Position numbers and translations under genes: made by a program. Below, one piece after another: positions 6,112-55,913 of a DNA stretch of 64,000 bases (within the stretch, counting starts at the first letter, position 1; the number at the start of each line of letters is the position of its first letter). Under the pieces are notes generated by a model. It had not been told where the DNA came from, searched no databases, and was given only the letters and a program-made list of their open reading frames with translations. This DNA is from a virus (lineage: Duplodnaviria > Caudoviricetes), in the IMG/VR virus record IMGVR_UViG_3300028809_000013, positions 332 through 64,331 of that record; one strand, given 5' to 3'.

Positions 6112-6577
6112 GAAAAGCTTTACGGTGCTCGCTGTTCTTCAGAACCAGTGGTTCAACGACCCGGACCGTGTTCGCGAGATCGTCTCCGACATGACTCGTC
6201 GTGAGCGCCGCCGGTGGGACAGCGCCATGCTGTTTATGGGCTGTCTGTCCGGCCGTCGCCTGAAGCGCGCGTTTGGCGAGGATGCTGTGTACGAGTGGGA
6301 AACCACCAACGCCTCCGCGGAGATCGGTGGGCAGTCTGCGGCGCGGTTCCCGGCGGACCTCGACCACCTCCGCGCAGAGATCGAGGACGTGCAGCCGGAT
6401 CTGATTCTCGCCTTCGGTAAAATCGCGGCCGTAGCTCTCCCGCGGGTCTGGAATGGCCCGCTCATTATCGGCCCGCATCCCGCAGCCCGCCCGCCGATTG
6501 ATGCTCCGGCGGAGTTGGCGCGCATGGCGGGGGAGCTGGAGGCGTGGCGACTGAAAATGCACGAGGTAAACCGATGA
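6101..6577 (+). CDS. Uracil-DNA-glycosylase-superfamily-like protein
   Basis: SGRRLKR...TNA...LRAEIEDVQPDLILAFGKIA...PHPAAR pattern of the UDG fold. Confidence 0.6.
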   Translation: MQDEKSFTVLAVLQNQWFNDPDRVREIVSDMTRRERRRWDSAMLFMGCLSGRRLKRAFGEDAVYEWETTNASAEIGGQSAARFPADLDHLRAEIEDVQPDLILAFGKIAAVALPRVWNGPLIIGPHPAARPPIDAPAELARMAGELEAWRLKMHEVNR

Positions 6578-6948
6578 AGGAAGATCTTGAATTCGCGCTG
6601 CGTCAGGAAAACGAGGCGCTACGCGCACAGGCGGAGAGCCTGCGCAGGTGGGTCAGCGATCTTCAGTCCGGCATGTACATCAACTGCGTGTACTGCGGGC
6701 ATCGCTACGGACCTGCCGATTCGGTGCAACCCTCCATGCAGGAGATTCTGCACCAGCACGTCCGCGTGTGCCCCAAGCATCCACTCGCGCGAGCGCTGGA
6801 GGATATGGACACCATTCGACGGATGGTGGCAGAGGTGAACGGGGATGACCCGGAGACGTGGCCCAAGCACGGGAACGCGCCCCTCGCCATCGCGTCGTGG
6901 CTGGCCCTGTTAAAGATCGAGCGCGACAGAGCGGAGACGGGCGCGTGA
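6574..6948 (+). CDS. Coiled-coil and Zn-finger protein
   Basis: CVYCG...H...CPKHP. Confidence 0.65.
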   Translation: MKEDLEFALRQENEALRAQAESLRRWVSDLQSGMYINCVYCGHRYGPADSVQPSMQEILHQHVRVCPKHPLARALEDMDTIRRMVAEVNGDDPETWPKHGNAPLAIASWLALLKIERDRAETGA

Positions 6949-7481
6949 GCAAGGGACTGGACCCCGCCCGCCTCGCCCGCAGCCTGACGGAAGCGCTCAA
7001 CCGTCCGTGGGGGCAGAGCCCGCCCGGCGTACACGGCTGTGGGCACACGGAACATGTGCTACGCTGCGTCTACTGCGCGCTGGAGAACAGCCACCGCGCC
7101 ACCAACCGCCGCATGCTGGACAAGCTGCTGGCTGGCGAGCGCGACCGCCTGCGGGACGAAGGCGCCGGAAACATCGCCGCCCGCCGTGCCCGTGCCCGCG
7201 GCAAGGCCCATGTCCTGCTCGTGGACCGCGTGCAGGACAGCCTGCACGCCGCGGGAGTGGTTGAGGTCGAGGTGGACCGCCGCGCCGTTCCTGTGGCCGT
7301 TTCGGCGTCCGGCATGTTCGGGCGGGAGCTGCGGGAGGACGAGGCGTGTGAGATCATCCAGGAGGCGCAGGAAGCATTGGACGCCACGCGCGAATATCAG
7401 ACGCACGTGCTGTGGGACAGAGTGCCGCCAGTCCTCCGTGTCGCCGGGATACCGGATCAGGTGGGACTGCTGGGGATGTGA
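6945..7481 (+). CDS. Hypothetical protein
   Basis: GTGA-coupled ORF. Confidence 0.55.
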   Translation: MSKGLDPARLARSLTEALNRPWGQSPPGVHGCGHTEHVLRCVYCALENSHRATNRRMLDKLLAGERDRLRDEGAGNIAARRARARGKAHVLLVDRVQDSLHAAGVVEVEVDRRAVPVAVSASGMFGRELREDEACEIIQEAQEALDATREYQTHVLWDRVPPVLRVAGIPDQVGLLGM

Positions 7482-7491
7482 AACGCGCCTC

Positions 7492-7569
7492 TTGACTTCC
7501 GCTGCGTAGGAAGATATATTGGTTGTAGTGAGATCAACCAACCCACCAGCACAGGGCAGGCGGAGCATG
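7492..7569 (+). promoter_or_regulatory. Repeated promoter-leader cassette, copy 1
   Basis: TTGACT-N17-TATATT followed by a leader shared with 42322-42398 and 45858-45935. Confidence 0.75.
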
Positions 7570-7839
7570 AGCACGACGACGGCAGCGCGGACGGTGCGGA
7601 AGCAGGTGATGGAAGCAATCCGCGAAGCGGGGTTCGGCGGCCGGCGCTTCTTCTATCAGGCGGTTCTCAATCCGACGTGGGCGGATGAGGACGCGGAGGA
7701 CTGCGTGGATATCCGTGCCCTTGACGAGGTCGTTGCCGAGGCCCGGCCGGGCGACGTGGTGGACGTGTACGTCTACACGCGGACGGACGAGGAGTGGGAC
7801 CAGACCCTCGTGGACAACGTCACCGTCAAGGTGATGTAG
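7567..7839 (+). CDS. Hypothetical protein
   Basis: Follows promoter and leader; hairpin at 7849-7870 after the stop. Confidence 0.65.
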   Translation: MSTTTAARTVRKQVMEAIREAGFGGRRFFYQAVLNPTWADEDAEDCVDIRALDEVVAEARPGDVVDVYVYTRTDEEWDQTLVDNVTVKVM

Positions 7840-7907
7840 TGACACTCCGGAGCCGGGCCATCCCGGCTCCGCGCCTCTCCACCCTTGCACTGACAGGTGG
7901 ACCGACA

Positions 7908-8141
7908 ATGAACGACGCGAATGCGGATCTGGAGCGAGAGATTCAGGCGAGGGTTGCCTACACGTTGAGGACGCGGCCTGAGTTTCAGGCGATGTCGCCG
8001 GAGGATGTCGGCGCGCTGGTGGGGACCAATATAGTGTTGTTGAAGCTCCACTCCGACTTTTCTGCGTCCACCAACACCGCCCGTGCTGTCTTGTCCAGCG
8101 TTATGCGGGACATGGGCGTTGAGTTGTGGCACCTGCTGTAG
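7908..8141 (+). CDS. Hypothetical protein
   Basis: AGGTGG RBS-like sequence; precedes TIGR-like array A. Confidence 0.55.
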   Translation: MNDANADLEREIQARVAYTLRTRPEFQAMSPEDVGALVGTNIVLLKLHSDFSASTNTARAVLSSVMRDMGVELWHLL

Positions 8142-8196
8142 CTAATCCGGCAACGCGGCGGCGGCACCGCGGAACCAATCTGAGTGGGCTAGAACG

Positions 8197-8461
8197 GACG
8201 AGCCGATCCACAGTAGAAGCACCCGAAGCTACAGAGCGAGCCTAGATACTGGAGATACCCGTCTAGTATGAGCGAGCCCGAGCGAAAGGAGTCACCCGCT
8301 GAGAACGAGCGAGCCGTAAGCACCGAGCTATCCGTAATTTGCTAGCGAGTCGCTTTTACCATAGGCATCCGTATACAAAGAACGAGTCGTGCCGCCGAAG
8401 GTAACCTAAGCCTCCAAGCGAGCCGGAGCAGAACAGACGACCTTTGGGTTGGAACGTACAG
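8197..8461 (+). repeat. TIGR-like guide-RNA array A (7 units)
   Basis: Alternating 9-nt repeats ARCGAGYCG and AGNNAYCCG-like, separated by unique 9-11-nt spacers; period 36-38 nt. Confidence 0.85.
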
Positions 8462-8496
8462 CGGGCTACGTAGGGAATCCCTACGTAGCCCGCTGT
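8458..8496. terminator. 19-bp perfect inverted repeat closing array A
   Basis: ACAGCGGGCTACGTAGGGA-A-TCCCTACGTAGCCCGCTGT between convergent units. Confidence 0.7.
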
Positions 8497-8566
8497 TGCA
8501 CCATCGAGCACCCCCACACGGATGTTGCGTACGATAGCCTTCTCCCCCGTGAGCCGCAAGAGGGCT

Positions 8567-10651
8567 TTAGTTGTCAATCGCGGCTAGGGCGCCCGCCTCT
8601 TCCATCTCGATCTCGCTGGCAAGCTCCGTGGCGTCGGGCAGCACACCGGAGGGACCGGGGCGCGACAGAGCGCGTTCCGTGGCAAGCTCCGCCTCTTCGG
8701 GTGTCGGTAGCGCGGACTCCCCGCTGAAGTTGCCGGCCTTGCGCTGGGCGGAAAAATATCTGCGCACGCCGCTGATGGCTTCCTCCATGAACGCGCGCTG
8801 TTCGTTGCGGATCATCCGCTCCACGTCGCGGGGGGTAGAGCCGGGGATGTTCCGTGCCTGCCAGCGCCGCGCCTCCGCGATGGACTGGTACTCGTCGCTC
8901 GTCACTACGTCCGCGAGCACGCCGCGCAGCATGGTGCCGAACGACTCACGGCGCCGATAGAACTCCTCCCGGTCCTCGCCGGGGTTGGGACGCAGGCGGG
9001 TGATCCCCACCTCCAGCCGCTCCAGCTCCCGGCGCACCTCGTCCTGCGTGCTGCGGTCCAGCTTGGAGTTGAACGGATCGAGGAAGTTGCCGGCGAAGCT
9101 GTCCTCCTTGGGCACCTTGTCGCCCAACGCGTCACGCCGCACGGGAAGGCCCCGTGACGCATAGGGGATGCGCGCCTGGATCGCGTCAGGCACGCGGCCT
9201 TGCAAGATCGAGCCCAGCCTGTCGCCGTCTCGCGTCTCCCGCACCACCGGGTCTACCATCGTTGCCCAGCGCGCGATTACCGGGGGGATGAAGCTGGCGG
9301 CCATGCGCTCCACCCACTTGGCCCCACCGCCGGCCGGATCGCGCCGCAGCTCCTCAATCTGCCGCGCCCCCGTAAACGCAGGCTGGTCCGCCATCGTGTT
9401 GAAGATGCCGCCCACAAGGCCGCCCACAAGGCCGCCGATGTTCTCCCCGCCCTCTCCCCGTGCCACGGCAGCCGCCTCCTGCGCTTCCTGCTCCGTGCCG
9501 CCCTGCGCCCGTGTGGCGAGATAAGCGTCACGCTGCGCGTTCTCCTTGGCCTGCGCCGCCTGCTGGGCGTAGGCGCCCACGACGAGCAACGGACCGAAGG
9601 GTGCCATCTTCTTCACGCTCCACCAGCGGTTGCCGATGCGGACGGAGTAGTCTTGCTTCCCGGTCGCCTCCCACCTCCCCGCCTCGCCCTGATCGGTGCC
9701 GGGGTAGCCCAGCGACACCATCCCGCGCTCCGACAGCCACCAACCCACCATCAGCGCGCCGATGCCGGCAGAGCCGCGGCCCATCTGGTCCACGGCGTAA
9801 CGTTGGAGATCGGCGGCTTCGCTCACGTCTCCGTTGGTCGCCGCACGGAAGGCGCGGCGCAGGTTGGCGTAGCCCATCGCCAGACCGGCGCCGCCGTACT
9901 CTACCACCCGATGCGCGGCGTTGGATGGAACGCGGGTGAAGGGGAGCACAACGTCCGCCGCCAGCTCACCCACCGGGTTGTTCTGGCTCACCGCGCGCTT
10001 GGCCCCCGTGAGCAGCCGGGCCATGGGTGTGTTGTCCGCGAAGGTCGCCACCTCGGCGTCATGGAAGGCGCGCATCACGTTTTCGTCCGGCATCCGGGGC
10101 AGGGTGCGGATGACGAAGTCCTCCAGCTCCACGCCAGACAACCCCTCCCGTACGCCCAGTAGCCGCGCCTGCTCCCGCAACGACCGCTCAAAGGCCAGCC
10201 GCTTGAAGGGACGATCGGTCGCCTGCGTGAGCCGGAACACCGTCTTGGTGATGGCGTTCAACAGGGGCGTATCGTACTGCGTCTCCCCCTGATACATGTC
10301 CAGCGCGCGGTTGCCCTGGAATGTGTCGATCCCCTGCATGGCGAGTTTCACGTCCCGCGGCGTCTTCTGCACCGCCTCCCACGACGCGCGCCCAAGGTCG
10401 CTGCTGTCGAACATCCGCGTACGGATGCCCGTACGCCGCGCCGCCAGTCGGTCGATGCCGGAGGCGATGGGGTGTTTGGCGATCTCCGCTCCCGCCATGA
10501 TGGAGTTGGACACCACGTCCGCCAGCCGGGACGCCGGGTTCGCGAGGAGCATCGACTTCCACAGGGTAGTGACCTTGCGGACGTTGGTGCTTCTCTCCAG
10601 CCCGGAGACGTAGTTAGCCATCTCCAGCGTGCAGTTCGTTGCCTGCGCCAT
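8567..10651 (-). CDS. Large virion/ejection protein (resembles the C-terminal part of polyvalent proteins)
   Basis: 694 aa helical protein; PFTRVP.N and DYSVRIG..W.S motifs seen in large phage ejection proteins; position after the ejection genes. Confidence 0.7.
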   Translation of the reverse strand: MAQATNCTLEMANYVSGLERSTNVRKVTTLWKSMLLANPASRLADVVSNSIMAGAEIAKHPIASGIDRLAARRTGIRTRMFDSSDLGRASWEAVQKTPRDVKLAMQGIDTFQGNRALDMYQGETQYDTPLLNAITKTVFRLTQATDRPFKRLAFERSLREQARLLGVREGLSGVELEDFVIRTLPRMPDENVMRAFHDAEVATFADNTPMARLLTGAKRAVSQNNPVGELAADVVLPFTRVPSNAAHRVVEYGGAGLAMGYANLRRAFRAATNGDVSEAADLQRYAVDQMGRGSAGIGALMVGWWLSERGMVSLGYPGTDQGEAGRWEATGKQDYSVRIGNRWWSVKKMAPFGPLLVVGAYAQQAAQAKENAQRDAYLATRAQGGTEQEAQEAAAVARGEGGENIGGLVGGLVGGIFNTMADQPAFTGARQIEELRRDPAGGGAKWVERMAASFIPPVIARWATMVDPVVRETRDGDRLGSILQGRVPDAIQARIPYASRGLPVRRDALGDKVPKEDSFAGNFLDPFNSKLDRSTQDEVRRELERLEVGITRLRPNPGEDREEFYRRRESFGTMLRGVLADVVTSDEYQSIAEARRWQARNIPGSTPRDVERMIRNEQRAFMEEAISGVRRYFSAQRKAGNFSGESALPTPEEAELATERALSRPGPSGVLPDATELASEIEMEEAGALAAIDN

Positions 10652-10696: not shown

Positions 10697-10768
10697 AGCC
10701 CTTCAGTGGTTGCCGAGCCGGGGCCGTGAAGACCCGTGCACGGGCGGGTTCGATTCCCGCAGGGGCTA
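10697..10768 (+). ncRNA. tRNA-like RNA (non-canonical)
   Basis: 7-bp acceptor stem AGCCCTT/AGGGGCT, perfect T-arm GCGGG-TTCGATT-CCCGC, tRNA-like length; D and anticodon arms poor; no encoded CCA. Confidence 0.55.
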
Positions 10769-13700
10769 TCCGCAAGACTCGATGATCTCACGGATGCGGG
10801 CGCCGTGGACCGCTTCCTGAAACTCCAGCCCGCGAGCCTTCAGGGCCGCCGCCGCGCGCTCTCGCCACACCACCGGGTCCATCGTCTGGTTCGCCAGAAT
10901 CTTCAGCGCGTTGAGGTTGCGGCCGGCGTCGGAGCGCTCACGGATGAAGCGGGACAGCAGCAGCGTGTTCTGCGCCTCAGCCTGTTCGATCCCCTGCCGG
11001 AGCAACTGCCGCTCCAACGACGCCTCCGCCGTCTCCAGACCGTCCATCTGCGCCAGCCGCAGCGAGGACCGTTCGATCCCCTCCACGTTCTCGCGCACCT
11101 GATTCCGCACGGCCAGCAGTTCCGCCGCCGTCAGGCCGCGGGTTGACTTGGCGAGCGCGGACACGTCCGTGGGCTGCATCCCCAGCTCGCGCGCCACCTG
11201 CTTCGTCTCCTCCCACGTAACACGCTGCTTGGGGTCCAGTCCTTCCGCCTCCACGATGCGGCGCACGTGGTCCGCCAACCGCCGCTCCCCGGTCGGGTCC
11301 AGCCCGAAGGAAGACAGGTTGGCGTAGCGGCCGGCGTCCAGCACCGGGTTGGCACGGGAAGGTAGGGGATCAAATCCCTCCAGCTCCAGCCCGCCAATGA
11401 GCCGCGAGTACACCCGCTCCACGCCGGGGGTGGCATCGTCGGCAGCGGCCTCCAGTTCATCAATGATGCGACGGCGTACATGCTCGTTCCCGGCCCGGTA
11501 GGCGTCGGTGATGGCGGACTGCTCCGGCGCGGTGAGCGTGCGTGTCACGCGCTGGCGTACGGGCTTCAACGGCCCCTCCGCCAGCAGCGCCACGTCCCGG
11601 TCCGCGATCTGCTGCGGCGTCAGGGTGCGGCGGGCGGCACGCTCTCCCACCTCGCCACGCATGGCGGCGGCCACGTCGGGCACCAGCCGTTCGTAGCGCT
11701 TGGCCAGTTGCTCCAGTTGTCCATCCGTGAACTGCGACAGCGCCACCCGCGCAGTGCCGCGGCGGATTGCGTTGCGCATCTTGCGGCCAGACGTGCGCAG
11801 ATAGCCCACTCTCACCCCCAGCGCACCGGCAGACCCCGCCAGCGCCCCGTAGAGGGGATGATCCGGCTCCATCGCCAACCCCAGCCCCGCACCGGCCGCC
11901 GCCTGCCCGGCCTGCGTCTTCAGCGCATCCAGGATGGGGCCGGGGAAGCTGTAGAGCGCCTGCCCCTGACGTTGCACCGTCTCCCGGAGCGCGGGAGTGA
12001 TGCGGATGGACAGGTTAGTGCCGCCTGCCCCCTCGTCCAGAACGCGCTGCACGGGGTTAGAGCCCAGCAGGTATTCCATCTCCGTGCGAAACCCGTCAGA
12101 CCCCGTTTCCATTAGGTGCACAAGTGCGTGCGCGCGCTGTTGCGGGTTGGCGGTGGCGTTCATCACGTGCAGGATGTCCGCGCGATAGTAGGGCTCCGCT
12201 CGCTCCGCCATATCGCGCATGACGTTATCGGTCAACTCCGGACCCACCCACTCCGTCCGGTACATCTCGTTTTCCATCCCCGGCAGACGGATGGGTTCCA
12301 CCTCCACGCCGAGCTTCTTCCCGTACTTGGCGAGCCAGCGAGGGATGATCTTGTCGTAGAACTCACGCATCCCCTCCAGATTCTTCGGGTCGTTGGACAC
12401 CACCTTCCAAATCTGGTCGCCGGTGCTCCACGCTACACGGTCGTAGCCACCTTCCACCGCCTCATCTACGGCGCGCTTCAGGGTGAGGCCCAGCCACTCG
12501 TCCGTGTTCTTGAACGGGGCGTTGGGGACACCTCGCGTCTCGACTTCACGAATGGCGGCGCTTTCCGCCGCCTCACGAGTCCAATAAGCGGAAATCTCAC
12601 TACCGTCTGGAGCCAATACTGACCATTGGCTCCCGTTCTGTTCAACCTTGTAGGGTTGGTTTGTATAGCCATGCTCCCGCCCCGTCTGATGCCAGTCGCT
12701 CTGTGCCTCCTGCATGAAAAGCACACGCTCACCATCGGGCAGGGTGCGATCGTCCAAGCGGATGTGGGCCATCGTGTTGGGCTCATCCCAATGCGGACCG
12801 CGATAGATAGAGTTGCCCCGCTCCGCGTTGAACTTGTCCAGTGCCTCCCGTAGTGCCGCCTCGCGATTCTGGTTCGCACTCAGGCGACGACCGTTGGCGT
12901 CACGCACGGACCACAGGCTACCATCCTGCTCCATTCGCCAGTCGTCGGGGGCGGAGCGCAGGCGGTCGTTGTCCAGCGTCAGCAGCACTTCGCGGTACGT
13001 CCCCGGCTCACCTCCGGCGACTTGGTAGCCCGCGTAGCGGCCCTTGGTAGCTTCCTGCGCTTCTCGTAGAACTTCGTCGTGCCGCTGGATTACCGACTCT
13101 GCGCCTTTGAACTCATCCATCAATCGGTATATCGCGCTGCGCTCCTGGACAGGCACGTCGCGAAAGTGCGCGCTGGCGTCGATGGCAGCGCTACCCCATT
13201 GCCGGATTTCGCTGATGGCGCTGGCTTCCGCCCACGGCTCGATGGAGGTAGCACGCAATGCGGCAAGCAACTGCTGCTCGATCCCCTTGCTCGCCTCCAC
13301 CGCTACCGAATAGGAGTCATGCAGTTCTTTCAGGCGAGCCCTATTCCCTCGCGTTGCGCCGTAGCCTACCTCGCCCACCCGTACGCGGTTCTGCGCAAGA
13401 TACTGCCCCAACTCCGCGCGCGTGACCTTTTGGTTGCCGCGCTCGCGGAGCCATGCGTCTACGCCGGTCCACTCGCGCTCCCCCTTCGCGATGCCGGCCG
13501 GATGGCCATCCAGGTAGCGGAGCCACTGCGAGGCGGGCGCGGCGTTCTGGCCGCTCCGCACCGCGTTCTCCAGCCGCGAGTAAAAGCGTGGGGCGCCAGC
13601 ACTGGTGCGCAGGGTGGAGATGTCCCCCACGGCACCGATCCGGTTGCCGGCGTGCCGTGCCACGCTGCGTGCAATCGCAGGCCCCGCCGCTCCCACGCCA

Positions 13701-16700
13701 GCGCCGATTGCAGCGCCACGCAGGGGGTCTTCGCGGTCGATGGCCGCCCCTGCCAGCGCCCCGGCTCCGGTGCGAGCTACAGCGCCGAGCAGGCGAGGGT
13801 CGGCGGCGCCTGCGATATCGGGATTGCGGGGATCGAAATTCCCACTGTTGCCAATAGCAGATTTGATCTGTTCCGGATGGAGGGGGATATAAACATCTCC
13901 TTCATCACCGGTGTTGCGGATAACTACACCATCGTAGTTCCCGCTCCTAATGGCATCCCGGAAAGGTTTGCCCTCTGGCCCAAATTGGTATTCGCCCGCG
14001 TAATTGCCCTTGGCATCGATGACGTACGGCTTTTGGATGGACAGGTACACAGGATACACTGAAGGGCCATGTCCTCCCCTTGAATTCACACCCTGCGCAA
14101 ATTGGTTGGCTACATCCTTCGAGGAGGAAAAGAAGCCGGCGATATCTACGTCGGGCTCATCCCCATTGTATGCAGGGAACCCCCCGAATTCGCGGCGATT
14201 GATAGAAGACATGGGCTCTTGACGCTGATCCGGCGGCCACATCCCCTTATAAACCACCAACGGTTCTCCGCTATCGTCCACAATCTTGCTGTTGCCGAAC
14301 CATCGGTTGAACTGAGGCGTACGCGTTTGTGGCTCGCCCTGACTGGGCGCGGAGGCGTTGCGCGACGTTTCAAAATCACCCGCGGCGCCGGTCGAGGCGG
14401 TGGACGCCGGGTGAATAAACTCCGCAGGGATTTCCCCTTCGACGTACGGATATCCCTCTGCATTCACTCCGCCGAAAAGCCCGCTGTTTTCGGGAATCTC
14501 CACGCGCAGCAGTTGTCCGCCGTACTCCTTCTGGAAGTCGGCGGCCTCTGGGAGATTGTCGTGTAGTGCGATGCGGGTTCCGTCCTCATACCCTCCATCC
14601 GCGAAGTCGAAATCCCACTTCCATTCGGGCTCAACCCCCTGTTCGCGCAACCTGAAGAACGACTTCAGAGGGTCACCAGCTCGGTACCCCTCCGGGGCTA
14701 CGTGATAGTAAACGCCCGGATTCTCGGTCGGGTCGGAGCCTCGACGCTTCCCCGTCCAGATGGGGACGGGGGGCTCCTGCCCCTCCAGCCGAGACAAGTC
14801 GCCCACCGCCCCGTACTGGTTCTGAAGCGGGCGCACAGCGACACGGCCGGCGTCCATCAGTGCCTCGGTATCCGGCAGGCGCAGCGGGTCCACCTGCCGA
14901 TCCGGCCCCAGCGCCAGCGGGAACCCGGTGCGGTTGCGCTGCGTGGTCGCCGGAGTCGCTGTCGCCATCTCGTCCGGATTCGTACGGACGAATCCGGCTT
15001 CGGTACGTGGGCGGCTTCGCAGGTCCTCCGCCAGCTCCATCCCGGCACGCCTGCGCGCGGCAAAATTCGCGTCCGCGTTGATGGCACCGCGCATGGACGC
15101 GGCACCGAGGCCAGCCCCGGCCAGCGCCCCCAGCGCCGCGCCGCGAGCAGGATTCTCCGGGTCTAGCGTTCCACCTGCCGCGCCGCCGACAACCGCCCCA
15201 GTTCCGGTGCGGGCGACGAGGTTCAACAGGTCAGGCGTGGCGGCGCCGGTGATGTTCGGATTGCTGGGGTCGAACGCGCCACTGTTACCGGTGGCGGATT
15301 TGATTTGCGTAGGATGGAAGGCGATAAACGAATTTGCAAATCCTTCGGCTTCATTTTTGTAGATTATGCCATCGTAGCCGTGTCGCTCCAGCAGATCGCG
15401 GACGGGTCGCGACCATTCATAGTGAGCCCTTCGTTGAAGAACCTGATCGTCATCCTGTTCCAGATTTTTGCGCAGTCGCTTCCCGAGTATGTCAATTTGC
15501 CTTTGCGCTTCAACGACTTCGGCGGTTGGTAGTTTTGCGCGTACCTGAGCTGTGCCAAGTACACGCGATGGCGTCCATACTCCCATATCCGGCATCTGCA
15601 GGGGATTGCGAATGCTGAGGAATACGGGCATTTCTTTGCCCATCATTTCAGCAGCAGCAGCGTCTCCAAAGTGAAACCCAAACTCTCCTGCTTCAAAAGT
15701 GTCAAAATCCTCTACGGTGCCATGATACACCACCAGCGGCTGTCCCTGCTTGTCTCGCACCTTGCTGTCCCCGAACCAGCGCCGAAATTCCGGCGTGTCC
15801 GTCTGCGCCAGCCTGTCGATGCCTGCGCGGTCGCCTACTGCCCCTACCCGGTTGCCCAGCAAGCGCTGGGCGGGAGACACGGCGTCCGGCATCGCGGAGA
15901 TGACGGAGCCGTCTTCCATGCGCACGCGCACGCGGCCGAAGGTGTTGCCTGCCACGGTGCCGCTTACGGGGCCACCCTCCGTCTGCACTACCACGGGCTT
16001 GCCCACGTAGTTGCTTGCTTCCCGGCGGGCCTCGGCCGCGCGCTCCCGGTCGGTAAGTTGCCCGGTTTCGCGACGACGTTCGGCGGCGCGCTGCATCCCC
16101 AGCGCCTTCAGACGCTTGTCGGCATCCTCACGGGAGAGCGTGCCAGCGCGCACCTGACCGTTGATCGACGCACGGCGGGCGCGGTACGCGTCCTCTGCCG
16201 CTTGGTCGATCTGCCCGGCAGGCGCGGGTGCCACGTCGGGGACGGGTGCCGCTGCGGTTGTGGCGGGCGATTCGCTCCGCGCTACTGGTGCCACGTCAGG
16301 CGCGACGGGGGCGCTTTCCGGAAGCGCACGCACCCACGCGTCGAGATCGACTTCATTACCGGCGTTGGATAGAGACGCCGCGCTTTCTTCGGGCTCTGGC
16401 AAGCCGCGCGCTTTCCTCCATGCACGGTATTGAAGCTCTGCCACACCGCCCGGCTCATATGCCGGTGAATTTCTGTAACTTTGCCACTGCTCTTCCATCC
16501 GTGCACGCCTCGCTGCCTCAAAGCGAGCGCCATACAGCGGGTCTACCTCACGTATCGCGTCCGCCTCGCCCTTGCGACTACCGGAAAGGGACGCGGCTTC
16601 GGCCCTGGATAGCCAGCGGCCAGATGTCGAGGTAAACCCCGCCTCAATGCCCAAGGATGGATCGGGCATTCCTCCTGCGTGTTCATAGGCATCAATCACC

Positions 16701-18013
16701 GATTCATCAACTCCATCATCCAGCATCGCATTAAGGGCCATCCCATGATTCTCGCCTTCGTATACCTTGCCGCCATAACGGATACTGGCGGCACGCACCC
16801 GCTCTCCGCTGCCCGCCGGCGCACGACGCCTCGCCGCGTCTGTCTCCAGTTGACGCAGCCACGTAGGCACCACCTCAGCGCCTTCCTGCGGCCTGTCGAT
16901 GTTCAGATCGGGCGCAAGAAGCCCGCTTTCCCGGCCGGGGCGCGGGCGCACGATCTCGTCCATCCGGTCCGCCGCTACGTCCGCCGTGCCCTCTCCGCGC
17001 CGGACACGCCGCGACGACGGACGGACGAAGAGCTCTTCCGATGCAGTCATGCGGCCACCGCCGGGGCGCAGCAAGCCACCCGCGACACCGCCGGCCAGCG
17101 CGCCGATGGCGAGGTTGGCGCCGCGGCTCTCTCCGTCCTCGTAGTCGTACGCCAGATCGTACGGCAGGCCCTCCGCCACGCCGCGGGCCACGTCCCCTAG
17201 CCGAGTACGTGCGCCGGTGGTCCCGAAGCTCTCCAGCGCCGCACGCATGGCCGTGCCCTCCGGGGCGATCCGCGCGCTGCGGGCCAGCAGGGCGTTTTGC
17301 GCGCCGATGGGCACGGAGGCGCCGAGGATGGCCCCTGCGATACCGGAGGCGCGATCCCCACCCGTTGCAGCCTCCCGGCGGAGCGTTTCGCGTTCACGGA
17401 AATCCTCCGCCGTGGAAACCGGAGACAGCGCCCCCAGCAATTCGTCGCGATACCCCAGCGTGAGCGTCTGCGCGCCGCCAGCCCCGGCGTAGTCCAGCGC
17501 CCGGACCACGGCAGGGCGCTCCTGGAGACGGCGCCGCTCGCGGCTGCGCTCCTCGTCCAGCGCCCGCTGCGTGCGGTTGCGGGTGTCCGGGCCGATGGTC
17601 CCCGTGCGGGAGGGATCGGGGCGGCCCGGAACGCGGGATGGGCGGCGACTCTGCGGCGTACTGGCGGCGTCGGCGGCTACAGGCTGCGCCGTCTCGGACG
17701 CGTCCCGTAGCGCGGCGTAAGGATCGAAGTAGCGGCGCGGAAAGTTGGCAGGAGGAGCCTGCACGCCCGCGGCGCGGAGGGCGGCGCCCTGACGCATGAG
17801 CGGGCTGGAGCCAACGTCCGTGCCGGCGGGCAGGTCTTGGGCCGGTTCCGGCGTGAACGTGTCCTGTAGCCACTGGCGTACGCCGCGCCGCCGCCTGCGC
17901 CTGCGGGGAGGCGTAGTGGCGGTGTCAGGTTGCGGCTGGTTGGCGCCGGCCCGCTCTGCGTCGGCCCGCAGCGAGTCCAGCCAGCCAGTTACCTCGTCCT
18001 CACGCTTCGACAT
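10766..18013 (-). CDS. Giant polyvalent virion/ejection protein with two ADP-ribosyltransferase-like domains
   Basis: 2415 aa; two copies of TP.F.RWFG.SK..D..G.PLVVY(H/K)G...PV.LSI..P...YDG....N...HP.QIKSA.GNSG.FDP.NP.I; also FYSRLE and HW....AHIR..DR...LFMQEAQSDWHQ modules. Confidence 0.8.
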   Translation of the reverse strand: MSKREDEVTGWLDSLRADAERAGANQPQPDTATTPPRRRRRRRGVRQWLQDTFTPEPAQDLPAGTDVGSSPLMRQGAALRAAGVQAPPANFPRRYFDPYAALRDASETAQPVAADAASTPQSRRPSRVPGRPDPSRTGTIGPDTRNRTQRALDEERSRERRRLQERPAVVRALDYAGAGGAQTLTLGYRDELLGALSPVSTAEDFRERETLRREAATGGDRASGIAGAILGASVPIGAQNALLARSARIAPEGTAMRAALESFGTTGARTRLGDVARGVAEGLPYDLAYDYEDGESRGANLAIGALAGGVAGGLLRPGGGRMTASEELFVRPSSRRVRRGEGTADVAADRMDEIVRPRPGRESGLLAPDLNIDRPQEGAEVVPTWLRQLETDAARRRAPAGSGERVRAASIRYGGKVYEGENHGMALNAMLDDGVDESVIDAYEHAGGMPDPSLGIEAGFTSTSGRWLSRAEAASLSGSRKGEADAIREVDPLYGARFEAARRARMEEQWQSYRNSPAYEPGGVAELQYRAWRKARGLPEPEESAASLSNAGNEVDLDAWVRALPESAPVAPDVAPVARSESPATTAAAPVPDVAPAPAGQIDQAAEDAYRARRASINGQVRAGTLSREDADKRLKALGMQRAAERRRETGQLTDRERAAEARREASNYVGKPVVVQTEGGPVSGTVAGNTFGRVRVRMEDGSVISAMPDAVSPAQRLLGNRVGAVGDRAGIDRLAQTDTPEFRRWFGDSKVRDKQGQPLVVYHGTVEDFDTFEAGEFGFHFGDAAAAEMMGKEMPVFLSIRNPLQMPDMGVWTPSRVLGTAQVRAKLPTAEVVEAQRQIDILGKRLRKNLEQDDDQVLQRRAHYEWSRPVRDLLERHGYDGIIYKNEAEGFANSFIAFHPTQIKSATGNSGAFDPSNPNITGAATPDLLNLVARTGTGAVVGGAAGGTLDPENPARGAALGALAGAGLGAASMRGAINADANFAARRRAGMELAEDLRSRPRTEAGFVRTNPDEMATATPATTQRNRTGFPLALGPDRQVDPLRLPDTEALMDAGRVAVRPLQNQYGAVGDLSRLEGQEPPVPIWTGKRRGSDPTENPGVYYHVAPEGYRAGDPLKSFFRLREQGVEPEWKWDFDFADGGYEDGTRIALHDNLPEAADFQKEYGGQLLRVEIPENSGLFGGVNAEGYPYVEGEIPAEFIHPASTASTGAAGDFETSRNASAPSQGEPQTRTPQFNRWFGNSKIVDDSGEPLVVYKGMWPPDQRQEPMSSINRREFGGFPAYNGDEPDVDIAGFFSSSKDVANQFAQGVNSRGGHGPSVYPVYLSIQKPYVIDAKGNYAGEYQFGPEGKPFRDAIRSGNYDGVVIRNTGDEGDVYIPLHPEQIKSAIGNSGNFDPRNPDIAGAADPRLLGAVARTGAGALAGAAIDREDPLRGAAIGAGVGAAGPAIARSVARHAGNRIGAVGDISTLRTSAGAPRFYSRLENAVRSGQNAAPASQWLRYLDGHPAGIAKGEREWTGVDAWLRERGNQKVTRAELGQYLAQNRVRVGEVGYGATRGNRARLKELHDSYSVAVEASKGIEQQLLAALRATSIEPWAEASAISEIRQWGSAAIDASAHFRDVPVQERSAIYRLMDEFKGAESVIQRHDEVLREAQEATKGRYAGYQVAGGEPGTYREVLLTLDNDRLRSAPDDWRMEQDGSLWSVRDANGRRLSANQNREAALREALDKFNAERGNSIYRGPHWDEPNTMAHIRLDDRTLPDGERVLFMQEAQSDWHQTGREHGYTNQPYKVEQNGSQWSVLAPDGSEISAYWTREAAESAAIREVETRGVPNAPFKNTDEWLGLTLKRAVDEAVEGGYDRVAWSTGDQIWKVVSNDPKNLEGMREFYDKIIPRWLAKYGKKLGVEVEPIRLPGMENEMYRTEWVGPELTDNVMRDMAERAEPYYRADILHVMNATANPQQRAHALVHLMETGSDGFRTEMEYLLGSNPVQRVLDEGAGGTNLSIRITPALRETVQRQGQALYSFPGPILDALKTQAGQAAAGAGLGLAMEPDHPLYGALAGSAGALGVRVGYLRTSGRKMRNAIRRGTARVALSQFTDGQLEQLAKRYERLVPDVAAAMRGEVGERAARRTLTPQQIADRDVALLAEGPLKPVRQRVTRTLTAPEQSAITDAYRAGNEHVRRRIIDELEAAADDATPGVERVYSRLIGGLELEGFDPLPSRANPVLDAGRYANLSSFGLDPTGERRLADHVRRIVEAEGLDPKQRVTWEETKQVARELGMQPTDVSALAKSTRGLTAAELLAVRNQVRENVEGIERSSLRLAQMDGLETAEASLERQLLRQGIEQAEAQNTLLLSRFIRERSDAGRNLNALKILANQTMDPVVWRERAAAALKARGLEFQEAVHGARIREIIESCG

Positions 18014-38030: not shown

Positions 38031-38078
38031 TTTGGTCGATACCCTTGCCCTTGACTTACGGCATAGAGGGATTAGATT
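38031..38078 (+). promoter_or_regulatory. TTTGGTCGATA motif plus promoter of array B
   Basis: Motif at 38031-38041; TTGACT(38051)-N16-TAGATT ending 8 nt before the first repeat. Confidence 0.65.
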
Positions 38079-38086
38079 GAGCCACT

Positions 38087-38421
38087 GTCGAGCCGAAAGT
38101 GGAAAGACAACCGAATCATCTGAGCGAGTCAGTGGAGTGGAAGTAACCCGTAGCCAAAGAGCGAGCCGTGAAACGTTAGACACCCGGACTGGAACAGCGA
38201 GCCGTAGGGATTGAGCCACCCGAAGCAACGCAGCGAGTTGAGTAACGGTAGTCACCCGAGTGCACAACAAGCCGTTTGGTAGTGAGACGCCCGAAGGGAG
38301 GAAGCGAGCCTGACGCGATTGAAGTAACCCGAAAGGGTGTAGCAAGCCGTAGCAATCGATTCAACCGCCTGCCGCCAGCGAGCCGAAGCAGTTGAGATCA
38401 CCGGAAACATCCAGCGCCTTT
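38087..38421 (+). repeat. TIGR-like guide-RNA array B (9 units)
   Basis: Example unit AGCGAGCCG-tgaaacgtt-AGACACCCG-gactggaac; spacers 7-11 nt, mostly 9; followed by hairpin 38426-38460. Confidence 0.9.
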
Positions 38422-38764: not shown

Positions 38765-39115
38765 ATGCCCAAGGTCGTGATCGACGGAGTACAGTACATC
38801 CCCATGCCCGCGCCGCTGGAAGATGCCGACGAACTCATGCGTGCGCTGGAGGTGCGGTTCGACAGTGACGCTGGCGACAATCTCACGGTCCGCGAGTACC
38901 TGCGCATCCTACTGGACACGCTGTGGGTCGAGGAGGAGGGCTTCAGCGGAAAGCGTCCTTTCGGCAACAGTGGATGGAAGTATGAGTTGTACGAACCCTT
39001 GGTCCGGGACGGCTTCCTCCCTGGCGAAGTGGAAGACGGTAGGCATTTCCCGGATAGCTACGAAGACGCAGACCAATACGTCCGCCTGTTGATTCAGGCG
39101 ATGACGCGTCCGTAA
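38765..39115 (+). CDS. Conserved phage hypothetical protein
   Basis: TVREYL..LL.TLW.E.EGFSGKRPFGNSGW motif; stop overlaps the first repeat of array C. Confidence 0.7.
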   Translation: MPKVVIDGVQYIPMPAPLEDADELMRALEVRFDSDAGDNLTVREYLRILLDTLWVEEEGFSGKRPFGNSGWKYELYEPLVRDGFLPGEVEDGRHFPDSYEDADQYVRLLIQAMTRP

Positions 39116-39560
39116 GCCGAAGTATAGGAGCCACCCGTCGTATCGAAGCGAGTCAAAATTTCAGAGACGCCCGTATTGCAGGAACGAGTCTAACGGACAA
39201 AGCCACCCGTACGGGAAGAACGAGCCGCAACGAACGAGTAACCCTTTGGATAAAGAGCGAGCCAGCGTTTTTGAGACACCCGTCATCGACTAGCAAGCCG
39301 TGGTTCACGATACACCCGACGCTACTAGAGCGAGCCGTGCGAGCTGTGAGTAACCCGTGGCAGACTAGCGAGCCGTAGAATGTGAGATAACCGCGCCGCT
39401 TCAAAGCGAGCCGTACATCTTGAATCACCCTGTCTGACCAAAGCGAGCCGTGTCCGGGGAAGCCACCCTTCTGCCCTTGAACGAGCCGGAACTCGCAAGT
39501 CACCCATCCAGCCAGAACGAGCCGTCGAACCCGATACACCCTGCTCCTTGGAGCGCCGCA
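39111..39560 (+). repeat. TIGR-like guide-RNA array C (12 units)
   Basis: Example unit AACGAGCCG-gaactcgca-AGTCACCCA-tccagccag; 24 unique spacers of 9-11 nt. Confidence 0.9.
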
Positions 39561-54395: not shown

Positions 54396-54625
54396 GGTTA
54401 CGTTCAAGACGTACGGGTGACTCTACACTCTACCGGCTCGTTCCAAATTCGTCCGGGTTACTCGTCTGCTACGACTCGTTCTTTTGGTCCGGGTTACTCC
54501 GCGCGGCCCGACTCGCTCTTAGCATACGGGTTGCTCTAGTACGGCGGCTCGCTCACACACTTCGGGTGACTATTCAGTTACGACTCGTTCCCGAATTCCG
54601 GGTTACTTGTGCCAAACGGCTCGCT
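54396..54625 (-). repeat. TIGR-like guide-RNA array D (6 units), directly downstream of the tas-like gene
   Basis: Minus strand reads AGCGAGCCG-tttggcaca-AGTAACCCG-gaattcggg-AACGAGTCG-taactgaat-AGTCACCCG-aagtgtgtg...; 7 nt gap after the stop codon. Confidence 0.9.
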
Positions 54626-54632
54626 GTGTGTC

Positions 54633-55913
54633 TCAGTACCTCCCAATCATCTGCCACGGTCCCACGTACGACGCCTCGGAATGGCCCAGCACGGAGATGG
54701 CGTAGGGCTGACCCACCGGCAGGCCCAGCGCTTCCCGCCACACTTGCCAGAGATGCGACAGGAAAAGCTTCTCCGTCTTGCGCAGCGCCGTCAGGTGCTT
54801 GCGCCCGTCCGCCCAGCCCACGCGCTCGCGGTCCAGCTTCGCCCGCTCGGCGCGGTACACCTGCTCGTACTTGCCCCGCGGCACCTTCAGGAAGCCAGTG
54901 CCTACCAGATACATCTGCTTCTTCACGTAGGCGTCGTAGGTGGACTTCTGCCCGCGCGCCGGCTTGGGCTGGGCCGCACGCACACCGTCCTCCGGGCCGG
55001 CCACCTTCACCAGGGCGCCGGTGCACGAGGCGGTGCTTCCGAGCGCCTGATGCTTGCCGGTCACGTTGTAGCCCACCGGCCAGTCGCGCGTCATACCGCA
55101 GGCGGCGCAGGCGTAGCGCTCGCCGGGCACCGTGGCGAGGCCCGCGTACGCCCAAAACGCGGACGCCGTGGTCGCCTTCCTCGGGTCCAGCCGCGCCAGC
55201 AGCTTGCACGCGAGCGTAGGCCCGATCCCCTTCACCTGCGACAGCCACGGCCAGCAAACGTGGTCTTTCAGCGCACGCTCCATCTCCTTGCGAAGCTCCT
55301 GCTCCTCGGACCACGCGCGGTGGTACATGCGGCCCAGGATCGGCACCGGCCCGCTCTCCTCGCCACGGGCGATGGCGCCCAGCATCTCCTCCACACCCGC
55401 GACCTCCTCCGTCCCCTCGCCCCACGTCTCGTCGCGGCCCTGAAGCACGGCGCGAATCTGCTCGCCGCACCCGATACGCTTGCGCTGCGCCTGCTCGTAC
55501 CCGTCCGCGAGGAAACGCAGCATGCGGTCGTTCTCGGACTGCGGGGGCGCCTCGTGGTTGGCCGCCGACAGAACCGTCTGCGTCGCCACAAAGGAGTCCA
55601 GATCGGCTTCATGGCGTCCGACAAGGCCACGCCGTGCCTTCCACTCCTCGTTCTCCTGATGCTCACGCAGTTCCGTCAGCCCCTTCTTGCCGAAGCCGCG
55701 AATCAGCAGCAGCGCTTCGTCCGACAGCCGCGCCGCCGCCGCGGGCGTGGCGAAGCCGTCGCTGCGCAGCGCGTTGGACGTGCGCGCCGACAGATCGGAC
55801 CAATCCTCGTCCCGCCCGGCCACGGCGGCTCCGTGGCGGGAGGAGAAGAACGTCACGTCCGTGCGCTCCCCGCTTGCCAGCTCCTTCAGCGCTTCCCTCT
55901 CGATGGTGCTCAT
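54633..55913 (-). CDS. TIGR-associated (Tas)-like Nop-domain protein with N-terminal RNAP alpha-CTD-like domain
   Basis: IS110/Nop-type core (Q..RI...QIR coil; WLSQVKGIGP.LA..LLA; SAFWAYAGL; H..A.RK..KLFLSHLW..WR...GLP); no RuvC DEDD domain; aa 37-84 resemble alpha-CTD; adjacent array. Confidence 0.85.
   Translation of the reverse strand: MSTIEREALKELASGERTDVTFFSSRHGAAVAGRDEDWSDLSARTSNALRSDGFATPAAAARLSDEALLLIRGFGKKGLTELREHQENEEWKARRGLVGRHEADLDSFVATQTVLSAANHEAPPQSENDRMLRFLADGYEQAQRKRIGCGEQIRAVLQGRDETWGEGTEEVAGVEEMLGAIARGEESGPVPILGRMYHRAWSEEQELRKEMERALKDHVCWPWLSQVKGIGPTLACKLLARLDPRKATTASAFWAYAGLATVPGERYACAACGMTRDWPVGYNVTGKHQALGSTASCTGALVKVAGPEDGVRAAQPKPARGQKSTYDAYVKKQMYLVGTGFLKVPRGKYEQVYRAERAKLDRERVGWADGRKHLTALRKTEKLFLSHLWQVWREALGLPVGQPYAISVLGHSEASYVGPWQMIGRY

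What the first reader, a model, noticed from the sequence alone, without database searches (positions are those of the whole stretch)
8197..8496. Orphan TIGR-like array A, far from the tas gene
Seen: 7 units with the same two alternating repeats as the tas-adjacent array. It lies downstream of the 7492 promoter and two small genes and ends in a 19-bp hairpin. Its last repeat decays to AACGTA, as in array D. Inference: guides supplied in trans to the single Tas protein, possibly at a different stage of infection.
Basis: partly seen in the sequence, partly recalled or inferred. Interest (0 to 1): 0.8.

Follow-up and report, generated by a model that had tools for sequence, protein, structure and literature searches.

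The report
Remote TIGR guide-RNA array in phage
This is a genuine seven-unit TIGR guide-RNA array lying about 46 kb from the phage's only Tas gene, a normal member of a known RNA-guided system whose unusual feature is its remote position.

Summary
Window 8196-8451 (+) holds seven 36-38-nt units. Each unit is a 10-nt edge repeat, an 8-10-nt spacer, a 10-nt loop repeat and an 8-nt spacer. A 3'-truncated edge (8452-8456) and a perfect 19-bp hairpin (8458-8496) follow.

- **Same repeats as the other arrays.** They match arrays B (38086), C (39116) and the tas-adjacent D (54626, minus strand). Models trained only on B-D recover array A and almost nothing else.
- **The protein is a real Tas.** Gene 54633-55913(-) has a Nop fold, its best solved-structure matches are TasH and TasR, and the Y/H processing dyad is conserved. 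It has no nuclease domain, and it is the only tas in the record.
- **The array is conserved.** A collinear relative keeps the same seven units. Spacers diverge 6.9% against 18.7% at neighbouring 4-fold sites, and the hairpin shows three compensatory pairs.

Best reading: these guides are processed and used in trans by that Tas. Expression, targets and any stage-specific timing remain untested.

Published surveys scanned at most 5-10 kb around tas. I found remote arrays in 2 of 19 other Tas phage contigs, and this scan has noted remote or orphan TIGR arrays on other DNA before. Verdict: a new member of a known kind, of moderate interest.

The parts
7492..7520 (+). Sigma-70-like promoter (TTGACT, 17 nt, TATATT). 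It belongs to a 5-copy promoter family in the window and is the likely start of the transcript that ends in array A.
   Evidence: only promoter-like site in 7300-8700; family copies at 7491+, 38050+, 60553-, 45936-, 42399-.
7567..7839 (+). Small ORF 1 (90 aa). No family match. The relative G002 has a different gene in this slot.
   Evidence: no Pfam or PHROG hit; window 7504-7907 has no match in G002; GC3 0.82.
7848..7871 (+). GC-rich hairpin of 10 bp with a 4-nt loop, just after ORF 1. It may be an attenuator or terminator between the promoter and the array.
   Evidence: inverted repeat I7.
7908..8141 (+). Small ORF 2 (77 aa). No family match. A homologue (87 aa) is present in G002.
   Evidence: (76% nucleotide identity).
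8169..8195 (+). A 27-nt leader directly upstream of the array. Conservation with G002 begins here, while the genes further upstream differ.
8196..8451 (+). TIGR array A: 7 units starting at 8196, 8234, 8270, 8307, 8343, 8380 and 8416. Each is edge 10 nt + spacer A 8-10 nt + loop 10 nt + spacer B 8 nt.
8452..8456 (+). 3'-truncated edge repeat (GAACG). It supplies the 3' half-edge of the last tigRNA, and array D ends the same way.
8458..8496 (+). Perfect 19-bp hairpin with a 1-nt loop and no T-run. It is the likely terminator of the array transcript and lies 70 nt from the 3' end of the convergent gene 8567-10651(-). G002 shows three compensatory pair changes.
38086..38416 (+). TIGR array B (9 units plus truncated edge). 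Its own promoter lies at 38051-38078.
39116..39555 (+). TIGR array C. A 5'-truncated first unit starts at the stop codon of gene 38765-39115. Eleven full units and a truncated edge follow, then a hairpin.
   Evidence: partial unit 39115-39140, E 0.006.
54401..54626 (-). TIGR array D (6 units plus truncated edge GAACG), starting 7 nt after the tas stop codon.
54633..55913 (-). tas gene (426 aa). It has a coiled-coil and Nop core with the Y404/H411 dyad, plus an N-terminal extension of about 125 aa with an RNA-polymerase alpha-CTD-like helix-hairpin-helix. No HNH or RuvC domain. Predicted promoter at 55969-55940.

Best explanation
Array A is a functional dual-repeat TIGR array of a soil phage.

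Proposed mechanism:
1. It is transcribed on the + strand. The likely start is the promoter at 7492, reading through two small cargo genes. The transcript ends at the 19-bp hairpin.
2. The precursor is cut in the middle of each edge repeat, most likely by the Tas protein itself through its Y404/H411 dyad. [quoted passage not shown]
3. Dimers of the phage's single Tas (gene 54633-55913, about 46 kb away) bind these RNAs in trans. Tas recognises the shared ends of both repeats: a start of G/A-A-G and an end of CCG.
4. This Tas has no nuclease domain, so the complexes most likely bind 16-bp DNA sites without cutting. Spacer A pairs with one strand and spacer B with the adjacent part of the other strand. 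Binding would block or modulate transcription or replication of host or rival-element DNA, not of the phage itself.

Shown here: the array anatomy, its identity with the tas-adjacent array, the Tas fold and dyad, the single tas, and conservation under purifying selection.

Inferred: transcription, processing, loading in trans, DNA binding and the nature of the targets.
For: Anatomy
- Two alternating 10-nt repeats, 8-10-nt spacers, a 36-38-nt period, 7 units, a 3'-truncated edge and a terminal hairpin. These match the definition in Faure et al. [quoted passage not shown]
- Edge and loop repeats share the same start and end, as a symmetric Tas dimer requires (rule read).
- Models built without array A recover it specifically.

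Tas protein
- phmmer against PDB chains hits the TIGR-TasR chain 9mty_A (E 1.3e-17) and TasH (E 2.3e-6).
- The predicted structure has mean pLDDT 81.9, and its ten best PDB fold matches are all TasH or TasR chains (E 2.4e-9 to 2.5e-7), followed by IS621 recombinase.
- Y404 and H411 align with SpTasH Y289 and H296, the pre-tigRNA processing residues (alignment; residues named in PMC13421893, passages read; dyad said to be typical of dual-repeat systems in the Xu et al. preprint).
- Y404 is nearly invariant across 26 homologues.
- There is one tas gene in the record.

Selection
- The collinear relative G002 keeps the same 7 units at the same place.
- Differences number 16 of 256 positions: spacers 8/116, repeats 8/140. 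The neighbouring gene differs at 74 of 396 4-fold sites. Fisher p = 0.0015 for spacers and 4e-6 overall.
- All three hairpin changes are compensated.

Other
- No ORF of 80 aa or more lies within the array; one predicted 92-aa ORF (8449-8727) touches only its last 3 nt. There is no Rfam family hit.
- Remote arrays also occur in other Tas phages: G014 at 17 and 43-44 kb from tas, and G020 at 10.3 and 16.3 kb.
Against: - No expression or processing data exist for this phage, so nothing shows that the array is transcribed or loaded.
- The A units fit the consensus less well than B-D units (15.6-24.9 bits against 19-29; one unit reaches only E 7.7). The last two loop repeats end CCT rather than CCG.
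- A GC hairpin at 7848-7871 lies between the predicted promoter and the array. No promoter was predicted closer to the array.
- The terminal hairpin lacks a T-run.
- No target was found. Window guides against the window itself gave 0, 0, 2 and 30 sites at 0, 1, 2 and 3 mismatches. A control with mispaired spacers gave 0, 0, 2.1 and 32.3.
- The selection test rests on one pair of genomes and 16 differences. The region lies in a mosaic block, so its history may differ from other parts of the genome.
- The record is estimated at 79% complete, so a second tas cannot be fully excluded.
Confidence: 0.8

Rival explanations
1. Array A is a relic. It was once a duplicated or translocated piece of a TIGR array and is no longer expressed or no longer accepted by Tas. 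It persists only because it sits next to a useful terminator.
For: The A units score lower than B-D units. Two loop repeats end CCT and two edge repeats end CCT or CCC. An intervening hairpin lies at 7848-7871, and no promoter is predicted next to the array. Unlike B, C and D, array A shows no gain or loss of units between the relatives.
Against: Divergence from G002 is about one third of the 4-fold-site rate, in the spacers as well as the repeats. The off-consensus loop variants are themselves conserved in G002. CCT and CCA endings also occur in array C. The 3'-truncated edge and the hairpin are intact, and the hairpin's changes are compensated.
Confidence: 0.12
2. The repeats act at the DNA level, as iteron-like or centromere-like binding sites for a phage protein, and not as RNA guides.
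For: Regular 36-37-bp spacing of a short conserved motif is also typical of iterons and partition sites. TasA loci are sometimes linked to ParB-like genes (PMC12045711, Discussion, read).
Against: The unit anatomy is identical to the array that directly follows tas. All four arrays are oriented with their transcription units and end in half an edge repeat, which makes sense for RNA processing but not for DNA binding. Spacers are all different yet conserved between relatives. No ParB-like gene turned up in the 53 window proteins I scanned against PHROGs.
Confidence: 0.04
3. Chance periodicity, or a coding tandem repeat.
For: The k-mer detector does give false clusters in coding repeats of other contigs.
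Against: Seven in-register hits to a model trained on other arrays, against 1.22 scattered hits per shuffle. No ORF of 80 aa or more lies within the array; one predicted 92-aa ORF (8449-8727) touches only its last 3 nt. The period of 36-38 nt varies and is not a fixed multiple of 3.
Confidence: 0.01

Closest known systems
Dual-repeat TIGR-TasA systems (e.g. the FpTIGR locus of Flavonifractor plautii; Faure et al. 2025, PMC12045711)
   Same: Alternating edge and loop repeats of 8-12 nt, short paired spacers, units of about 36 nt, a truncated terminal edge repeat and a terminal hairpin. The effector is a nuclease-less coiled-coil plus Nop protein.
   Different: Array A is not next to tas. It is about 46 kb away on the record, or at least 16.6 kb if the record's ends were joined. 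It is one of three arrays in separate transcription units away from tas. Spacers are 8 nt rather than 9. The box-like repeat end is CCG rather than CCA. Tas carries an extra N-terminal alpha-CTD-like domain.
SpTIGR-TasH of Salicola phage CGphi29 (PMC12045711; PMC13421893)
   Same: It is phage-encoded and has 16 nt of spacer per guide. The Y/H dyad in the C-terminal loop of the Nop domain, which processes the precursor autonomously, aligns with Y404/H411 here.
   Different: TasH has an HNH nuclease and cuts DNA. This Tas has none. Protein identity is low, 15-16% in the fold alignment.
Orphan CRISPR arrays and phage-borne mini-arrays that use Cas proteins encoded elsewhere (recalled from general knowledge, not from a call)
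   Same: A guide array physically separated from the effector gene and served in trans.
   Different: The RNA-guided family, repeat architecture and targeting rule are different. There is no adaptation machinery.
Archaeal box C/D sRNA genes dispersed in a genome and all served by one Nop5 (relationship described in PMC12045711, Discussion)
   Same: Many dispersed guide genes share box C/D-type anchors, and a single Nop-domain protein dimer binds them in trans.
   Different: Those guides direct RNA methylation with fibrillarin and L7Ae and have K-turns. Here the guides lie in tandem arrays, are processed from a precursor, and in characterised TIGR systems pair with DNA.

Membership tests
Dual-repeat TIGR array (Faure et al. 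2025) | Two distinct, alternating short repeats (8-12 nt) | tested here: met
   A 10-nt edge repeat and a 10-nt loop repeat alternate in all 7 units. The consensus is the same as in arrays B-D.
Dual-repeat TIGR array (Faure et al. 2025) | Short spacers (about 9 nt, up to 12) between the repeats, giving units of about 36 nt, usually in 5-15 copies | tested here: met
   Spacer A is 8-10 nt and spacer B is 8 nt. Units are 36-38 nt and there are 7 of them. All 65 eight-nt spacers read from the window's 33 full units are different.
Dual-repeat TIGR array (Faure et al. 2025) | Edge and loop repeats share box D-like starts and box C-like ends that covary | tested here: met
   Both repeats start G/A-A-G and end CCG. 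In array A, 4 of 7 edge repeats and 5 of 7 loop repeats end CCG. The others end TCG, CCT or CCC. Which nucleotides Tas actually contacts was not tested.
Dual-repeat TIGR array (Faure et al. 2025) | [quoted passage not shown] | tested here: met
   GAACG at 8452-8456 and then the 19-bp hairpin. The first edge repeat departs from the consensus in its first 4 nt. The hairpin lacks a T-run.
Dual-repeat TIGR array (Faure et al. 2025) | Located directly upstream and/or downstream of a tas gene | tested here: not met
   tas is at 54633-55913 and array A at 8196-8456, 46.1 kb apart. A tas gene is nevertheless present in the same genome. This is a matter of genome organisation, not of the array's anatomy.
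Dual-repeat TIGR array (Faure et al. 2025) | Transcribed and processed into tigRNAs of about 36 nt that co-purify with Tas | not testable with these tools
   No RNA run holding this DNA could be listed. Heterologous expression or infection experiments are needed.
Tas protein (TIGR-associated Nop-domain protein) | Coiled-coil plus Nop-domain fold related to TasR, TasH and IS110 RNA-binding domains | tested here: met
   Pfam Transposase_20 above its cut-off. PDB sequence hits to 9mty_A (1.3e-17) and TasH (2.3e-6). All top-10 fold matches are TasH or TasR.
Tas protein of dual-repeat systems | Y/H processing dyad in the C-terminal loop of the Nop domain | tested here: met
   Y404 and H411 align with SpTasH Y289 and H296. 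Y404 is conserved in at least 90% of 26 homologues, and the G-H motif in most. Catalysis was not tested.
TasA (nuclease-less Tas) | No HNH or RuvC nuclease domain | tested here: met
   Pfam finds only RNA_pol_A_CTD/HHH_5 (residues 40-84) and Transposase_20. Residues 1-125 are an extension found in only 5 of the 26 aligned homologues; most homologues are 300-340 aa. Parts of the N-terminus have low model confidence (pLDDT below 50 at 1-3, 15-36 and 96-120).

The most novel reading that the evidence does not exclude
The phage spreads at least 34 guides over four separately transcribed arrays that serve one nuclease-less Tas. That Tas carries an RNA-polymerase alpha-CTD-like domain and acts as a natural RNA-guided transcription regulator of host or rival-element DNA. 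Array A would be the stable 'core' guide set with fixed targets: it has the same seven units in relatives and its spacers are under purifying selection. Arrays B-D would be fast-turnover sets. Because each array has its own transcription unit, the phage could load different guide sets at different times.
Probability: 0.15. Interest if true: 0.8.

Novelty: new member of a known kind. Interest (0 to 1): 0.45.

Why it matters
TIGR-Tas was described in 2025, and its natural targets and biological role are still open questions.

- **Undercounted guides.** The two genomic surveys I read looked for arrays only within 5 kb (Faure et al., Methods) or up to 10 kb (Xu et al. preprint, Methods passage) of tas. 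This phage keeps 3 of its 4 arrays, about 28 of 34 guides, more than 15 kb from tas. G014 and G020 do likewise. Catalogues built around tas therefore undercount guides, and tas-less contigs may carry working arrays.
- **A handle on targets.** Array A shows a remote array kept under purifying selection, spacers included. This argues that its guides have stable natural targets, and it offers a defined set of seven 16-nt specificities for finding what a phage TasA actually binds.
- **An analogy.** The arrangement resembles dispersed box C/D guide genes served in trans by one Nop protein.

Tried and rejected
1. RNA evidence: the look-up of sequencing runs on window 6500-10500 listed 3 DNA runs (soil metagenomes) and no RNA holder.

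2. Self-targets: 33 window guides were tested in both possible strand arrangements against the window. Counts equalled those of the mispaired-spacer control.

3. Targets in 21 other viral contigs (1.32 Mb, including G001 and G002): 32 guides were tested. Array A gave only one 1-mismatch site, at the chance level. One perfect site was found for an array C guide (see Noticed in passing).

4. Known phages: blastn of window 7400-8600 against 50,697 phage records found no match. tblastn with Tas found 7 records, all below 60% identity and below 50% coverage. The portal protein matched only distant actinobacterial phages at 23-31% identity.

5. Rfam: only sub-threshold miRNA-type hits to the bare hairpin.

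6. tRNA scan: none found.

7. Shared spacers between the window's arrays and 65 Tas loci from bacterial and archaeal genomes: only scattered 6-8-mer matches outside arrays, which are noise.

8. Remote-array candidates rejected on inspection as coding or other repeats: G004:48378, G007:37435, G008:58047, G010:35942, G011:43552, G013:18035 and G019:47020-50055. G013:5485-5671 looks array-like but has no tas-adjacent array for comparison, so it is left open.

9. A search of host genomes for the seven 16-nt target sites was not attempted. The host is unknown, and 16-mers are expected by chance in the large collections.

10. Literature:
- 'TIGR array' plus 'orphan' returned one unrelated paper.
- 'orphan' and 'multiple arrays' do not occur in either survey paper. 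'Distant' and 'in trans' do not occur in the preprint and occur once each in PMC12045711, in unrelated contexts.
- Supplementary tables of these papers were not seen and might list remote arrays.

Full report
**What is there**

The window is almost all of a 64,331-base IMG/VR virus record. The record is linear, and CheckV estimates it to be 79% complete. Its G+C content is 65.6%.

Between 8196 and 8451 on the + strand lie seven head-to-tail units of 36-38 nt. Each unit has four parts:
- a 10-nt edge repeat (consensus GAGCGAGCCG);
- spacer A of 8-10 nt;
- a 10-nt loop repeat (consensus GAGTMACCCG);
- spacer B of 8 nt.

After the seventh unit come the first five letters of another edge repeat (GAACG, 8452-8456), one base, and a perfect 19-bp hairpin at 8458-8496. 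The hairpin folds at -41.8 kcal/mol, z = -6.8.

The same two repeats build three more arrays:
- **B:** 9 units from 38086 on the + strand.
- **C:** a 5'-truncated unit from 39116 and then 11 units on the + strand.
- **D:** 6 units from 54626 on the - strand, starting 7 nt after the stop codon of a 426-aa gene.

All four arrays stop after five letters of an edge repeat.

**Is it more than chance?**

Three tests say yes.
- A two-block weight matrix was trained only on the 26 units of B, C and D. At 14 bits or more it finds all seven units of A and one other site in both strands. Markov shuffles give 1.22 scattered hits on average.
- A sequence-only Infernal model from the same 26 units gives the A units E-values of 6.7e-4, 7.3e-3, 0.015, 0.034, 0.19, 0.3 and 7.7. 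Only one non-array site reaches E <= 0.3.
- A de novo periodic 6-mer detector returns exactly the four arrays.

No ORF of 80 aa or more lies within the array; one predicted 92-aa ORF (8449-8727) touches only its last 3 nt. No Rfam family matches. The A units are weaker matches than the B-D units, but B-D were the training set.

**The protein**

The 426-aa gene at 54633-55913(-) is a Tas protein.
- It matches Pfam Transposase_20, the IS110 C-terminal RNA-binding domain, and an RNA-polymerase alpha-CTD / helix-hairpin-helix domain at residues 40-84.
- It matches phrog_4285 at 3e-40.
- Against PDB sequences it hits the TIGR-TasR chain 9mty_A (1.3e-17) and TasH (2.3e-6).
- An AlphaFold model built from 26 homologues has mean pLDDT 81.9. 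Its ten best PDB fold matches are all TasH or TasR chains, followed by IS621 recombinase and Nop5.
- In the alignment, Y404 and H411 fall on SpTasH Y289 and H296. These residues cut the precursor RNA (PMC13421893, passages) and are said to be typical of dual-repeat systems (Xu et al. preprint, section read).
- No HNH or RuvC domain is found.

Most homologues are 300-340 aa and cover only the C-terminal 70% of this protein. Only the five closest carry the N-terminal extension. The protein is therefore a TasA-type, nuclease-less effector with an added alpha-CTD-like domain.

Six-frame searches of the record with PF02371 and phrog_4285 find this gene only. A second PF02371 stretch scores 13.7 bits, below the cut-off.

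**Context**

Almost all genes from 8567 to the right end run on the - strand. In order of transcription they are the replication genes, a clamp-like gene, tas with array D, the terminase, the portal, the scaffold, the major head protein and the virion proteins.

Array A closes a short + strand block of small genes of unknown function. It converges on the 3' end of the last - strand gene (8567-10651).

The only promoter-like site in 7300-8700 is TTGACT, 17 nt, TATATT at 7492-7520. It belongs to a family of five sites beginning CTTGACTT. The others lie:
- directly before array B (38050);
- before the helicase gene (60553-);
- after the terminase (45936-);
- before the portal operon (42399-).

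Three of the five share a conserved leader. tas has a different predicted promoter. Nothing in this indicates special timing for array A.

A 10-bp GC hairpin at 7848-7871 lies between the promoter and the array. Read-through is therefore an assumption.

**Relatives and selection**

Two related viral contigs were found.
- **G002** (64,941 b) is collinear with the window from end to end.
- **G001** (37,533 b) covers window 26849 to the end.

G002 has array A at the same place with the same seven units.
- Conservation starts 27 nt upstream of the first unit. The genes further upstream differ: G002 has four small ORFs there.
- Differences number 16 of 256 positions: edge repeats 3/70, spacer A 2/60, loop repeats 5/70, spacer B 6/56.
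- The adjacent 694-aa gene differs at 74 of 396 4-fold sites and at 34 of 1390 first and second codon positions.
- Spacers at 6.9% and repeats at 5.7% are both well below the 18.7% of 4-fold sites. Fisher p = 0.0015 for spacers, 1e-4 for repeats and 4e-6 overall.
- The three changes in each hairpin arm pair with each other, and none is left uncompensated.

By contrast, arrays B, C and D differ among the three phages by whole units and by replaced spacers.

**Targets**

From the reported 8-nt 3' overhangs of TasR cuts (PMC12045711, passage read), I infer that a target reads as spacer A followed by the reverse complement of spacer B. I tested both arrangements.
- Against the window itself, counts equal those of the mispaired-spacer control, so the guides do not address this phage.
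- Against 1.32 Mb of other viral contigs, array A guides gave nothing beyond chance.
- Spacers have 47.5% G+C against 65.6% for the genome. Positions 1-2 of both spacers are biased to T/A then A.

The host is unknown. Fifty-five of 65 genome loci with Tas relatives carry Gemmatimonadota-lineage names.

**Comparison with what is known**

Array A meets every sequence-level criterion of a dual-repeat TIGR array as defined in PMC12045711 (sections read). The exception is adjacency to tas.
- That paper mined 5 kb on each side of tas.
- Neither text contains 'orphan' or 'multiple arrays'. 'Distant' and 'in trans' are absent from the preprint and occur once each in PMC12045711, in unrelated contexts.
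- A full-text search for 'TIGR array' with 'orphan' found nothing relevant.
- I did not see their supplementary tables.

In my own survey I examined 19 other Tas-bearing viral contigs of 30 kb or more.
- Genuine arrays 10 kb or more from tas occur in 2: G014 at 17 and 43-44 kb, and G020 at 10.3 and 16.3 kb.
- One further case is uncertain (G013).
- Seven flagged clusters were rejected as coding or other repeats.

Earlier notes of this scan describe similar cases on other DNA: a two-unit array 12.6 kb from tas in a marine phage, and TIGR arrays in elements without tas. I did not re-test those.

**Verdict**

The 'in trans' reading is the best explanation (0.8) but remains an inference. The 'different stage' idea has no support.

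Array A is an ordinary member of a known kind of system in an under-described genomic arrangement. Its main value is as a conserved, selected set of seven natural guides for a phage TasA whose targets are still unknown.

Noticed in passing
window 54633-55913 (-), residues 1-125 of Tas: Tas carries an N-terminal extension with an RNA-polymerase alpha-subunit CTD-like helix-hairpin-helix (Pfam PF03118, 26.9 bits against a cut-off of 23.8). It is present only in the 5 closest of the 26 aligned homologues. This could link RNA-guided DNA binding to transcription.
   Followed up: partly
window 7491(+), 38050(+), 60553(-), 45936(-), 42399(-): A family of five promoter-like sites begins CTTGACTT. Three of them (7491, 45936, 42399) are followed by a conserved leader of about 45 nt with a small stem and a GGAG-type ribosome site. 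Copies of the leader also occur in G001 and G002.
   Followed up: partly
window 39218-39254 (array C unit) and G016 position 47492 (-) (locus L116): The two 8-nt spacers of this guide match, in the expected arrangement, a perfect 16-bp site inside a small ORF of an unrelated Tas-bearing phage contig (56% G+C). About 0.04 such hits were expected over all guides and both arrangements. It may be chance.
   Followed up: partly
all four arrays (8196-8451, 38086-38411, 39116-39550, 54406-54626): Spacers have 47.5% G+C in a 65.6% G+C genome. The first two positions of both spacer A and spacer B are biased to T/A then A. All 65 spacers are distinct. Unexplained.
   Followed up: no
arrays B, C, D in the window against G002 (26.0-27.0 kb, 10.4-10.6 kb) and G001 (10.1-11.2 kb, 26.5-26.7 kb): Unit content differs among the three related phages: B has 9 units against 6, C 11 against 9, and D 6 against 3 against 6, with replaced spacers. 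Array A keeps the same 7 units. This suggests fast turnover by unit gain and loss in some arrays.
   Followed up: partly
window 38765-39115 (+): A small gene (phrog_15618, unknown function) sits between arrays B and C, and its stop codon overlaps the first, 5'-truncated unit of array C. The gene is absent from G001 and G002.
   Followed up: no
Tas residues C269, C272, H288, C297: Three cysteines and a histidine are invariant in all 26 aligned homologues, within a beta-rich insertion of the Nop domain. This looks like a zinc-binding motif.
   Followed up: no
loci L135-L191 (genome contigs): Fifty-five of 65 loci with relatives of this Tas lie in MAGs named Gemmatimonadota, Longimicrobiales or Gemmatimonadaceae, which hints at the host. 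My detector found almost no dual-repeat arrays within 3 kb of these chromosomal tas genes. Six loci (L155, L158, L159, L166, L167, L178) share a conserved sequence of about 35 nt about 70-130 nt after the end of the tas match.
   Followed up: no
G014 (loci L105-L108): 11.2-12.9 kb, 38.5 kb, 56.6-57.5 kb: A second, distantly related phage (Tas about 30% identical) carries about 50 TIGR units in five clusters. Three of the clusters lie 17-44 kb from its tas.
   Followed up: partly
window 10766-18013 (-): A single 2415-aa ORF lies in the virion module. It matches only PHROG families of unknown function.
   Followed up: no
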